Part shown: positions 11,041 to 15,800 of the stretch, in pieces
Numbering within the stretch: position 1 is the stretch's first letter
Layout of the letters: the number at the start of each line of letters is the position of its first letter
Source of the DNA: Tubiluchus corallicola
Lineage: Eukaryota; Animalia; Priapulida
Assembly (NCBI GenBank): GCA_030141605.1
Contig: JAQGDQ010000003.1
Span: 806,001 to 870,000 of the forward strand
Direction: 5' to 3'
DNA: 64,000 bases
Program-made: the position numbers and the translations under genes
Notes under the pieces: model-generated
What the model saw: the letters and a program-made list of their open reading frames with translations, nothing else
Told to the model about the DNA's origin: nothing
The model's database searches: none

Positions 11041-12232
11041 AATAATTATGTAATTTATAATTCACATATAATGAAACTCAGTGTGGTACTTGGGCAGTTG
11101 ATATACCGCACTTGTTTTCCAGATATTTATCGCTTGCGTAACATGGCAGCGCCCAACATGAGTATAGTGTAGCCCTGAATTTTGTTTGGAATATGCATTG
11201 CATTCTACGACCAACATCCCATTGGACTTAATTGACATCAAATTTTATGATTTAGTCGATTTAACAATAAATTAAATTATAATAATTGGTAATATAATTA
11301 AAATGTAATCGTTAATTTGCACCACTGCAATTAGTTAGTTATCTGGCTGCTAAGGGGGAATGAACAAAATGGGGAAGGCTTTATGTAACGATGTGTCAGT
11401 AGTATGGCAGTGTGCTTGCTTAGTATCTTAGCTTTCAACCCGACTTCCAGCAATCAACATATTTTCCTCATATTAAATGTTTATCAATGGGAAATTTGAA
11501 TGCAAATTAAATTGAAGAATTCATGTTGTTTTTTATTTGCTAATTAAAATCAATTTAAATCAAAATGGGCATGATTGATTGTGCATTCGTTGTGATATGG
11601 TTGTATGTTTTATCAATTCATTATAGGTTGGTCAGCAATTGAAGCACAACGTCCACAGGCCTTTTTGATTGTTCTGAGATTCTGACTATTGTGCAATATT
11701 CATATCGTTGTAGTAGTGATGGGACAAATATTCATGAATTATACAAAAATCTTATATAGATGCGATCTTTTTCCTAGCTATTTGAAAGTATTTGTATTCG
11801 TAAATAACAATTTATCATGTGTAATAAAAGCGCAAATGGTAATCTGCTGTATTAATAATTTTCTTTTGCTGCTGTGTCATGCAAATTGTTTAGGGAAAAA
11901 AATTTAGATATCAGCATCATATTTCGTATGCTGTGTGAACATCGTCATCATTATTGTCATTGCGTATATTACAGACATTGATTGGCCAGGTTTCAAAAAT
12001 TAAAGAACTTTATCCACAAGACAGATAGACACAGCTAACACTAGACGCCTTTATGCCAGTGGTTTGTCAGCACCACTGCCGATGATAACAATTACATACT
12101 TTACTTGAAATTGTATTTTGAGATTTATTTATTTTTAGGGCTTTTGCCTGCAGGGCTGTGGTTTCAAAGTCGTCATCATTCTTTGATTATTGGGAACTTA
12201 CAAAGATCTTTTCCTGTTAGAGCAAGCTTAAC

Positions 12233-12808
12233 ATGTCTGTTTATGACAACCACATTGATGAAACCAAAACACAGAACCGTTCCTCTAGCTCGGAAGATGA
12301 CGAAGAATTTGCACGTTTGAAATCAGCAGCAAATCATGATATCTGGCATGTAAAGACAAATAAAACTAATACAGAGTTTTCACAATATAAAAGAAATACT
12401 CATAAAGTTTTTGATAAAAAAGGAGATCTTGAGGATGCTTATTTTCCTTCAAAAATTAGAAGTTTTATAGCAAAGAAGCTTACTGCTAAGTTGGACAGTG
12501 AAATCGAAACTGTTGTCCTCGTGACTGGGTTGGAGAGCCTCAGTCAGGAAGTTAAAGGAAACGAAGAAACTTTTCGGTTATTTAAACATTCTGTGCCTGT
12601 CAGCTCTCCTTTACTGGTCACTAAAACACCGAAACGAAAACTAAGTTACAGCAGCAGTGATGCTGAGATTGATCTTTCGAGTGTTGCTGTGACTGCTGAT
12701 ATAGTAAAGAAGCAAGGAAAGACAGTGTCTACTTATCATAAATCTGGCACAGTTGAGTCTGGCATTCTTGCTGGTGTTAGATCTAAGAAACAGAAAGCAT
12801 CATTCTAG
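12233..12808 (+). CDS. CUSTOS: CUSTOS (C12orf43)-like protein, 191 aa, single coding exon
   Basis: Motifs in the order I recall for CUSTOS: SSSSEDDEEFARLKSAA (cf. SSSDAEELERCREAA), IRSFIAKKLTAKLDS (cf. FRAHVAKKLGALLDS), FRLFKHSVP (cf. FRLFFTSVP), KRKLSYSSSD, VAVTADIV and a basic C-terminus. Intact ATG to TAG; acceptor TTTTCCTGTTAG ends at 12220. Confidence 0.85.
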   Translation: MSVYDNHIDETKTQNRSSSSEDDEEFARLKSAANHDIWHVKTNKTNTEFSQYKRNTHKVFDKKGDLEDAYFPSKIRSFIAKKLTAKLDSEIETVVLVTGLESLSQEVKGNEETFRLFKHSVPVSSPLLVTKTPKRKLSYSSSDAEIDLSSVAVTADIVKKQGKTVSTYHKSGTVESGILAGVRSKKQKASF

Positions 12809-12877
12809 AACTTTACCCATTTGCAAAGTCTCTGATAATTCTGCTGCTGTTCTAGTGAAGTTTGCCAGTGATCAATA

Positions 12878-15800
12878 ATGACATCTTCAGATACAACTTT
12901 ACCGACTGTTTTAATTGTTCGCCATCTCCCGTCTGAATTATCAGTAGTTGAGAAAGAAGATCTGTTACAACATTTTGGAGCTACCAATGTTCGTTGTATG
13001 GGAACGAGAGGACACATGGTACTTTAAGCTTGCTAATACTATATATTAGTCATAGGCTAGCATTTTTCCATATCAGTCAATTTAAAAGTACATTTTAAAT
13101 AAACAAAAATAAATAGGCAATTTAAGCAGCTTGCTTGCTTGTGAGTAGTCTTAACCATTTGTCAGTCTCTGATTTGCGAAACTGAAACAGATTTGGTGTT
13201 TGGATAGTGGATGGTTTCACTATTAAGTAAATTCCAAGGGTTAGTAAGAAAAGAAGAAGTGGGCTCTAACTTTAGTGTGAGTGAGAGTATTTCAGTACCA
13301 GCCTAAATTGTGAGCACTTGATTATTTTTACTTTAAAGTTTAAAGCATGCTAAATAGTAGCTAAATTGTAAAATAAAATACTAATCCTTTTTGCTGTAAC
13401 TGAACATTACTGTTGCATATAGTGTGTGAAGTTTTACAAGTACTACCGTTTTGTTTGTTTCAGAAACATACAGCATTTGCAACCTTTTGTAAACATTCCG
13501 AAGCAGTTTCTGTAAGTTTTAGAGTCCTTTGTGGCAATTATGATTCATACAAGAATTTTTTAAATAAACATAAACTGGGCAAATTTAGAGAAAAAAGTCG
13601 GCACAGTTTCTAACATAACTATAGCATATGATGTGATGCAAAAGTTTTGTAATGATATTGATATTACATGTGCCAACTATATTTCATTCAATTGCCTTCG
13701 CGATGAGATCCCACACTCAAAGGTACCTGCAGCAGATTAAACATTTCAGTCCCGCTGCTGAGTTTGGATTATTCAAGCTGTTTTGTTGCGCTACTATTTC
13801 ACGTCATCATTGCAAATTATAAACGGTGAAGTTTCATTATTGAATTTATGACATGTAATTTAACTGATAAGACCATGTAGTTTAAAAATGTTTTTACAAC
13901 AGCAATATTTATGCATTTTATCTGACTTGTGATCGATCAGTATATTGGTGAACAGCAAAGTTCATCGGCTCATTATCCGAAAGTGCTGATTGGCTCATCG
14001 CTAATTAAATTTTGTGTCTTTCTTTTTTCAGTTATATTCTTTTATATCTTTGTGATTATATATAGTTAGTCATAAACATTTTTCCCCTGACTAATATTGG
14101 AGTTAAAAAATTTTTACAATTATTTGCAGGCACTGAATAAGCTGCATCAGCTGGATGTTCTGGGGCATAAACTAGTTGTAGAATTTGCAAAATATCAACA
14201 CGTGCAGCACTACCCTTTCCAGCCGGAATCAAAGAGGCAAGCATGCTGAACTAATTTAGTGTATGATCGTTAAAATCTCTGCAGGAATTTTCTTGTTAGC
14301 TTAATTGTTTCGTGTTATGAACGCTTTAAATACTTCAATGTTGCATGCTTGTCTTTGAGTGCAGACTAATGCGCGTATTGTGCTCGCTGAAGCAACATGG
14401 TGTTTAAGCAAGAATAGTGAATACACTGTAGTTTAGCTCCATGATTTCAGAACTTTTTTTACATTTGCAGCACTGGGAGAAATCATTTAAGCACTCCATT
14501 GGCACTTTTTCATATTTTAATTAGTGTAGAAATTCAGAAATTTATACCTTGTAGCAGTGCAAATATGTCGCTTTACTCATCTTTTGCAACATTGAAGTGA
14601 TGGGTAACTTGCCAACATTGAATAGATGTAGAATCAGCAGTTATTTTCACTTCAACGTGGCAATTCTGTGACCAGTAATAATGTCACAGAAAAGTCACAA
14701 TTATGGCTAGGAATAAAGTCACAGAAGAAAAGTCACAATTAATTTATGGAGGCCTGAAAAAGGTTACAATTTTAGTTAGGAAACGAAGTCAGGTAATCAA
14801 GTAAAAATATTCAAATCTGTCGCTACTTATTTAAGTATCATGAACCATCAAAGTAATAAAACAGAGAATGTTTTAAATTGGTTAATAGCTGACAATGCAT
14901 GACTTGTACATACTAACAATATTATTTATATATAATGGCATTACTTGTACGTGAAAAAATCACGTTTTGTTCAATATCTTAGGGTTAGATTTACGATTAT
15001 GGTTAGGGTTAGGGCTACTTTTCCTATGACTTTTTCCCTGTGAATTTTTTCTGTGACTTATTTTTCCTGTGATTTTATTACCTGAATTTGACGATTTAAT
15101 ATGGTTCGTCTGCTTGAGACTGACTCGGAAAATCGTAATAGTTAGTAGTTAGTAGGTCCTTAAAGGTAAAGTCCTCAAAAGATTTTTAATGACCATACTG
15201 GGTGTGGACAGACCTAGAAATCTAATGGCAAACATGGAAGGAGTGTGTGAAAGATGATGCAAAGTGCAAGAACATGTTTGGTTTGGTTTCTTGAAAACCC
15301 TTCCATAAATCTGAATAGGTTTAAGGAAACGTACCTGTCGAAAACTAGTTGCAGATGTTATGTGCTTCACACATTAGTGGATACTGCTATTGTTTTAGTG
15401 GTTATTTATTTTGGTTTGCTTTTGTCTCTGCCCTTTTCTTTTACTTCATTTTCCTTTCTTTCGCTTATTTTTCAAACCTATTTAAGAATTTACTAAAAAT
15501 TGGCATTAATTGCAATAGCGAATGCGGCAGAAAAACTTAATTACTTACATTTTTGGGCAAATTTTTTATTTTCTAGTGGTAAATATTGCATTTTAACAAA
15601 TTACGTTTGTTTCCTGGTTTATTTTATTTGCAAAGTTAATTACAAGTCTGCACTAATCACTCAAAGAACAAAAACTTTACTTGCAGACCAGAAGCTTCTG
15701 CGAATTCAAAAGAAACGGAGGAGGATGAAAAAAGCAAGAGTGCCGAAACAGAAAATGATACGTTCGAGAAGCAATTGCATGCTTTTGCACCTCAGTTTGG

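What the first reader, a model, noticed from the sequence alone, without database searches (positions are those of the whole stretch)
12221..13018. CUSTOS and RNPC3 appear to share one transcription unit (69-nt intercistronic spacer)
Seen: an intact CUSTOS-like ORF stops at 12808 and the RNPC3 start codon is at 12878 on the same strand. The spacer has no AATAAA/ATTAAA, no ATG, no good splice donor and little room for a promoter, but has two AG acceptor-like sites (CTGCTGTTCTAG at 12855, TTTGCCAG at 12868). CUSTOS has its own acceptor at 12220. Known: CUSTOS is a Wnt/beta-catenin regulator and RNPC3 a core U11/U12 snRNP protein; in human they are unlinked. Inference: both proteins come from one pre-mRNA, either as a true bicistronic mRNA with re-initiation, an operon resolved by SL trans-splicing, or alternative 3' splice sites from a shared non-coding first exon. 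Several out-of-frame ATGs inside CUSTOS make simple leaky scanning unlikely. I do not know of a description of this pairing.
Basis: partly seen in the sequence, partly recalled or inferred. Interest (0 to 1): 0.85.

Follow-up and report, generated by a model that had tools for sequence, protein, structure and literature searches.

The report
CUSTOS gene interlocked with RNPC3 start
In this animal genome an intact one-exon CUSTOS reading frame ends 69 bases before the start codon of the minor-spliceosome gene RNPC3, and the two likely share one promoter and are likely separated by alternative splicing, an arrangement known for other gene pairs but not found described for this one.

Summary
The geometry is real. 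CUSTOS (12233-12808, Pfam PF23999 above cut-off) stops 69 nt before a complete 13-exon, 500-aa RNPC3, whose exons 9-12 are spliced in a relative's RNA contig. The spacer has no ATG or AATAAA/ATTAAA; in-frame stops exclude fusion. The first canonical poly(A) signals after CUSTOS are two AATAAA in RNPC3 intron 1, so the genes overlap at RNA level. Which RNA carries RNPC3 is unresolved: no read bridges the junction. Best reading (0.45): a shared upstream promoter/first exon with alternative 3' splice sites, CUSTOS mRNA ending in RNPC3 intron 1, as for CPNE1/RBM12. Rivals: own RNPC3 promoter inside CUSTOS (0.27), true dicistronic mRNA (0.15), SL operon (0.13). No CUSTOS was found beside RNPC3 in 79 metagenome loci (25 informative). 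No paper pairs the genes, but fly RNPC3-like Miso also shares a promoter with a neighbour. This scan has noted similar tight pairs (other genes) in other animal genomes. New member of a known kind; interest 0.3.

The parts
11140..11172 (+). Candidate promoter-proximal first exon: YY1-like motif (label recalled) overlapping a short ORF MAAPNM..., in near single-copy DNA; donor not identified
   Evidence: Only match of AANATGGCRGCS in the window, 0.08 expected, but the pattern was written after seeing the site; X1 depth about 12 here vs 592-7233 at 9000-10901; 10 of 38 CUSTOS homologues begin MAAP; GT sites at 11162/11167 score poorly as donors
12119..12220 (+). Candidate 3' splice sites for the CUSTOS exon (AG ending at 12138, 12153, 12220)
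   Evidence: Top 2%, 8% and 15% of decoy AGs; no ATG in 12154-12232; use not shown
12233..12808 (+). CUSTOS (C12orf43-family) ORF, 191 aa, one coding exon
   Evidence: Pfam PF23999 above cut-off; own profile E=2.3e-21; Atlas top hits CUSTOS 0.93-0.94; contig in run X2 keeps the ATG, both listed differences synonymous
12809..12877 (+). 69-nt spacer: no ATG, no AATAAA/ATTAAA, three further in-frame stops, candidate acceptor at 12855 with CTGAT about 20 nt upstream
   Evidence: no unusual fold in 12720-12900, z=0.33
12878..13018 (+). RNPC3 first coding exon (start of RRM1); would also be CUSTOS 3' UTR; internal TTCAG at 12890 is a further candidate acceptor
   Evidence: 45-55% identity to N-termini of 8 homologues
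13098..13113 (+). Two AATAAA (13098, 13108) in RNPC3 intron 1, 80-90 nt after the donor: candidate CUSTOS poly(A) signal
   Evidence: P(2 or more in 100 nt) = 0.012 at the gene's intronic density of 22 in 13,415 nt, window chosen after seeing it
13464..27795 (+). RNPC3 exons 2-13 (13464-13511, 14130-14236, 15687-15800, 18338-18449, 20251-20319, 22343-22494, 22699-22937, 24425-24595, 25170-25264, 25914-25972, 26820-26952, 27733-27795); intron 3 GC-AG, last intron U12-type
   Evidence: Open 500-aa frame; three GT-AG joints in one X2 contig match exons 9-12 exactly

Best explanation
An intact one-exon CUSTOS reading frame sits 69 nt before the RNPC3 start codon, and the two genes likely share one upstream promoter and first exon, with alternative 3' splice sites likely deciding which protein each RNA makes. 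Inferred steps: (1) transcription starts upstream, most plausibly near 11.1 kb; (2) splicing to an acceptor at 12138-12220 gives a CUSTOS mRNA whose 3' UTR runs through the spacer and RNPC3 exon 1 and would end at the AATAAA pair in RNPC3 intron 1, which would also spare it nonsense-mediated decay; (3) splicing to the acceptor at 12855 (or 12603 or 12890) removes CUSTOS as intron and gives an ordinary RNPC3 mRNA. Shown: both ORFs, the spacing, the motifs, RNPC3 splicing of exons 9-12 in a relative. Not shown: start site, first exon, use of any 5' acceptor, the poly(A) site.
For: No AATAAA/ATTAAA from 12360 to 13097, then two at 13098/13108; intron 1 is the only one of 12 introns with two in its first 100 nt. 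12855 has 11 of 14 pyrimidines, a 25-nt AG-free zone and YTNAY at -20, within the range of the 11 true acceptors. CpG o/e of CUSTOS (0.55) equals RNPC3 coding sequence (0.50), with no CpG-rich stretch at the RNPC3 start. Promoter-type motif at 11140 in near single-copy DNA. Seven off-frame ATGs and a 191-aa ORF precede RNPC3 on any unspliced RNA. Precedents: CPNE1/RBM12 (PMC2568002, abstract and section 12); 130 fly genes share promoter and 5' exons (PMC4528330 section 8), among them CG44249 (supplement file 6, rows 108-109), which is the RNPC3-like Miso (PMC12084885 passages).
Against: Acceptor 12855 is not above chance (top 10% of decoys, below median; 4 AGs in the spacer). No convincing donor near 11140 (11162 and 11167 score -3.1 and -4.0). 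The RNPC3 exon-1 donor is not weak in this genome's matrix (leave-one-out 4.1 in a range of 2.9-8.3), so it could out-compete the intronic poly(A). AATAAA is common in these introns (1 per 610 nt). FlyBase says monocistronic forms of a 3' gene usually come from a separate downstream promoter. The splice models rest on 11 training sites.
Confidence: 0.45

Rival explanations
1. Overlapping but separately transcribed genes: RNPC3 has its own start site in the 3' half of the CUSTOS ORF or the spacer, and the CUSTOS 3' UTR runs over RNPC3 exon 1 to the intron-1 AATAAA pair.
For: The usual solution in fly dicistronic loci (PMC4528330 section 6). Only 1 ATG in the last 357 nt before the RNPC3 start, vs 5.7 in dinucleotide shuffles, P=0.006. 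Needs no spacer acceptor.
Against: The ATG scarcity vanishes when codons are kept: 1 observed vs 1.9 expected, P=0.37; whole-ORF shuffle P=0.11. No CpG enrichment or promoter-type motif in CUSTOS or the spacer.
Confidence: 0.27
2. True dicistronic mRNA: one mature RNA carries CUSTOS and spliced RNPC3, the second ORF read by re-initiation or internal entry.
For: 69 nt lies within the -34 to 319 nt range of exclusively polycistronic fly loci. ATG-free spacer; no canonical poly(A) signal before RNPC3.
Against: Seven off-frame ATGs, as many as codon shuffles give (7.3), so no sign of selection for scanning. Re-initiation after 191 codons is poor and 12 downstream junctions would invite decay (established knowledge, recalled). 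No structure in the junction (z=0.33).
Confidence: 0.15
3. Operon resolved by spliced-leader trans-splicing at 12855, which also makes the CUSTOS 3' end, as in Ciona.
For: Ciona operons lack intercistronic DNA and 16 of 18 lack AAT(U)AAA (PMC1488885 passages). Unpaired acceptor-like sites precede both ATGs.
Against: The phylum is unknown and nothing shows SL use: Rfam 0 matches in the window (weak), RNPC3 end branch 0.92 equals the tree's median, with no supported placement. SL is reported from a limited set of groups (PMC7986045 passage).
Confidence: 0.13

Closest known systems
CPNE1/RBM12 and other promoter-sharing human pairs (PMC2568002; abstract and section 12 read)
   Same: Unrelated proteins from one promoter and shared 5' exons; choice proposed to rest on splicing plus the upstream gene's poly(A) signal.
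   Different: There the poly(A) signal follows RBM12's own last exon, 23 kb from CPNE1's; here the candidate signal lies past the second gene's first coding exon, and sharing is not shown.
Drosophila shared-5'-exon and dicistronic loci, including CG44249 (Miso)/Snp (PMC4528330 sections 6 and 8 and supplement rows; PMC12084885 passages)
   Same: Tight same-strand pairs of unrelated genes; the fly RNPC3-like gene itself shares promoter and 5' UTR with its neighbour.
   Different: In the fly the RNPC3-like gene is the upstream member and the partner is Snp, not CUSTOS; transcript evidence exists there.
Ciona SL-resolved dicistronic operons (PMC1488885, PMC7986045; passages)
   Same: Under 100 nt between genes, no AATAAA, acceptor before the second ATG.
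   Different: SL use by this organism is untested; an intronic AATAAA pair offers another 3' end.
Su(var)3-9/eIF-2gamma type shared coding first exon (PMC4528330 section 8)
   Same: The ATG at 11143 could be joined in frame to CUSTOS (donor 11167 to 12220) or to RNPC3 (donor 11162 to 12890).
   Different: Both donors score poorly; 2 in-frame joins among 35 combinations tried is no evidence.

Membership tests
CUSTOS family (PF23999) | Pfam score above gathering cut-off | tested here: met
   37 bits vs 27.4, profile 11-153 of 264; shorter than all but 2 of 38 homologues, but the Atlas clusters listed are 176-226 aa
RNPC3 / U11/U12-65K | Two RRMs, full-length similarity to named RNPC3 | tested here: met
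   46% over 502 columns to P0003; N-terminal RRM aligned; exon 12 hits named RNPC3/SNRNP65 proteins
Promoter-sharing pair (CPNE1/RBM12 type) | Same start site and 5' exon on both mRNAs | not testable with these tools
   Only contigs were available; no joint 5' of 20500 in X2
Promoter-sharing pair (CPNE1/RBM12 type) | Separate acceptors for each ORF | tested here: inconclusive
   Candidates exist but are not above chance
Promoter-sharing pair (CPNE1/RBM12 type) | Poly(A) signal ending the upstream gene's RNA | tested here: inconclusive
   AATAAA at 13098/13108; use not shown
Dicistronic mRNA | Mature RNA spanning both ORFs | not testable with these tools
   No bridging contig listed
Dicistronic mRNA read by leaky scanning | Upstream ORF depleted of ATG | tested here: not met
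   7 observed vs 7.3 expected
SL-resolved operon | Spliced leader on the downstream mRNA; SL RNA gene in the genome | not testable with these tools
   No genome held; Rfam 0 in window
Read-through or fusion gene | Open frame or in-frame splice from CUSTOS into RNPC3 | tested here: not met
   Four in-frame stops, the last at 12869-12871, downstream of the spacer acceptors at 12855, 12860 and 12868

The most novel reading that the evidence does not exclude
One pre-mRNA yields either CUSTOS or RNPC3 through a regulated splice-versus-polyadenylation switch at the 5' end, so that minor-spliceosome supply is tuned by diverting transcripts into CUSTOS mRNA; the tandem U12-like 5' splice sites at 14034-14051 behind a cryptic acceptor, and the gene's own U12 intron, would close a U11 feedback loop at a place other than the 3' UTR used in vertebrates.
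Probability: 0.07. Interest if true: 0.65.

Novelty: new member of a known kind. Interest (0 to 1): 0.3.

Why it matters
It adds a gene pair to a known class and flags an annotation trap: neither 191-aa nor 195-aa CUSTOS sequence is in the 15-billion protein collection, and a gene finder could bury it in the RNPC3 5' UTR. RNPC3 is dosage-controlled by RNA processing in vertebrates (PMC5473595, passages) and shares a promoter in the fly, so a second, independent promoter-sharing case would be of modest interest to minor-spliceosome specialists. It would matter more only if the choice between the two mRNAs proved regulated or the RNA truly dicistronic.

Tried and rejected
No whole genome is held. 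The run search listed 2 runs and no RNA holder on record. X2 (kind guessed RNA; its spliced contig shows cDNA) gave no joint and no piece on the spacer or RNPC3 exons 1-6 in 3000-20500 at 80% likeness; this blank is no evidence. Its 188-nt CUSTOS contig has 118 letters 5' of 12261, of which 30 were shown; the rest could not be placed. Conserved adjacency: 79 RNPC3 loci from metagenome contigs, 25 with an N-terminal RRM hit and over 700 nt upstream (several duplicates, taxa unlabelled); 0 of 79 had a CUSTOS profile hit below E=0.04; 0 of 25 chosen upstream ORFs matched CUSTOS in Pfam. Close relatives were not in the sample. ATG depletion as a leader signature: rejected on codon-preserving shuffles. 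Structured IRES-like spacer: none. Fusion or read-through: excluded. Single-sequence homologue search with CUSTOS: 0 of 301 candidates; one of the 2 phmmer hits (P0023) is a repeat protein and was dropped. Exon 1 alone found nothing in PDB. Phylum: tree of 15 RNPC3 rows (14 of 22 fetched homologues; 8 left out as fragments, a near duplicate or a fusion) unresolved; Atlas taxa uninformative. Literature: 0 papers hold CUSTOS + RNPC3 or C12orf43 + RNPC3; none of the 15 listed of 1,535 holds RNPC3. One supplement file of PMC4528330 could not be searched and may bear on fly cases. No complex prediction was run, as no binding is claimed.

Full report
Observation. The sequence shows an ORF from ATG 12233 to TAG 12808 (191 aa), a 69-nt spacer, and ATG 12878 on the same strand and frame. 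The first ORF is CUSTOS: Pfam PF23999 at 37 bits against a cut-off of 27.4, E=2.3e-21 with a profile of 38 homologues that excludes it, and CUSTOS clusters as the top Atlas hits. The second start opens a complete RNPC3 of 13 exons and 500 aa ending at 27795, 46% identical to a Branchiostoma RNPC3-like protein. One contig of run X2, a diverged relative, joins exons 9-12 across three GT-AG introns exactly as modelled. A second X2 contig lies on CUSTOS 12261-12328 with 8 differences in 68; its loose end keeps the ATG (21 of 30 letters alike, counted by eye), and the two listed differences are synonymous. That contig could be DNA, so it shows conservation, not expression. CUSTOS's role in Wnt signalling and the unlinked human loci are recalled, not tested.

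What the sequence excludes. The spacer adds three in-frame stops to the CUSTOS stop, the last at 12869, so neither read-through nor splicing to a spacer acceptor can fuse the proteins. Leaky scanning has no support: 7 off-frame ATGs against 7.3 expected. The junction has no unusual fold.

What it implies. After 12359 the next AATAAA/ATTAAA are at 13098 and 13108, in RNPC3 intron 1. Unless CUSTOS uses a non-canonical signal, its RNA includes RNPC3 exon 1. A pair in 100 nt has P=0.012 at local density, with the window chosen after the fact. Upstream, 9000-10900 is high-copy and 10900-11535 near single-copy in X1, which may be the source sample. There a promoter-type motif at 11140 overlaps a short ORF beginning MAAP, as 10 of 38 CUSTOS homologues do; the pattern was post hoc and no good donor follows it. 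CpG content of CUSTOS matches RNPC3 coding sequence and shows no island at the RNPC3 start.

Splice sites. Two rough models were trained on RNPC3's 11 U2 acceptors. The pooled model puts 12855 in the top 10% of 739 decoys, 12868, 12220 and 12890 in the top 15-19%, 12603 in the top 10%, 12153 and 12138 in the top 8% and 2%. The position-specific model ranks 12855 and 12868 below the median and 12153, 12603 and 12138 in the top 2%. So acceptors exist for both genes but none in the spacer is above chance, and 12868 breaks the AG-free zone seen in all 11 true sites.

Mechanism. I commit to a shared promoter and first exon with alternative acceptors, CUSTOS mRNA ending in RNPC3 intron 1 (0.45). It accounts for the missing poly(A) signal, the intronic pair, the lack of a promoter signature at RNPC3 and the unpruned ATGs, and needs no unusual translation. 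Every RNA step is inferred. A separate RNPC3 promoter inside CUSTOS (0.27) is the common solution in flies (PMC4528330 section 6); its best support, ATG scarcity in the last 357 nt (P=0.006), fails a codon-preserving null (P=0.37). A true dicistronic mRNA (0.15) fits the distance only. A Ciona-type operon (0.13) fits the lack of AATAAA (PMC1488885 passages), but the phylum is unresolved and SL use untested.

Conservation. In 79 RNPC3 loci from metagenome contigs, 25 with adequate upstream DNA, none had CUSTOS. The taxa are unlabelled and probably distant, so this speaks against deep conservation only.

Comparison and novelty. Promoter sharing by unrelated genes is established: CPNE1/RBM12 and more than 20 human pairs (PMC2568002 abstract), 130 fly genes, including CG44249 with Snp; CG44249 is Miso, 31% identical to human RNPC3 (PMC12084885 passages). 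Membership in this class could not be tested without reads. Searches for CUSTOS + RNPC3 and C12orf43 + RNPC3 found 0 papers. Earlier notes of this scan describe similar tight pairs of other genes in other animal genomes and led me to PMC4528330; none covers this pair. Verdict: real, probably undescribed pairing, new member of a known kind, mechanism open, interest 0.3.

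Noticed in passing
window 26953-27732: RNPC3's last intron is U12-type (GTATCCTTT donor, TTCTCCTTAAT at 27710-27720), so the minor-spliceosome protein needs its own machine (consensus recalled).
   Followed up: partly
window 14012-14051: A strong cryptic acceptor (AG ending 14031) is followed by two U12-like 5' splice-site motifs, reminiscent of the USSE; 16 tandem hits of up to 2 mismatches occur in the window, 2 with one mismatch, and the upstream part resembles a repeat, so chance is likely.
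   Followed up: partly
window 14237-15686: RNPC3 intron 3 needs a GC donor to keep the frame.
   Followed up: no
window 9379-10110 and 6974-9021: MITE-like element with 38-nt inverted ends and a broken minus-strand LINE with an RVT_1 hit lie upstream of the candidate promoter; 9000-10900 is high-copy in X1.
   Followed up: partly
window 3601-4170: CpG-rich stretch (o/e 1.12) with a donor-like site on each strand (about 3830 minus, 4165 plus): possible promoter of an upstream gene and a second candidate for the shared first exon.
   Followed up: no
window 36693-62655: Multi-exon Prominin gene on the minus strand, tail to tail with RNPC3 (Pfam PF05478).
   Followed up: partly
L017, L019-L022, L025-L029, L031-L033, L035, L038, L040: A group of metagenome loci carry RNPC3 residues about 144-497 in about 1.1 kb, i.e. 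without introns.
   Followed up: no
L041:8878-9312: ORF about 750 nt upstream of RNPC3, same strand, with a weak BCAS2 hit below cut-off.
   Followed up: no
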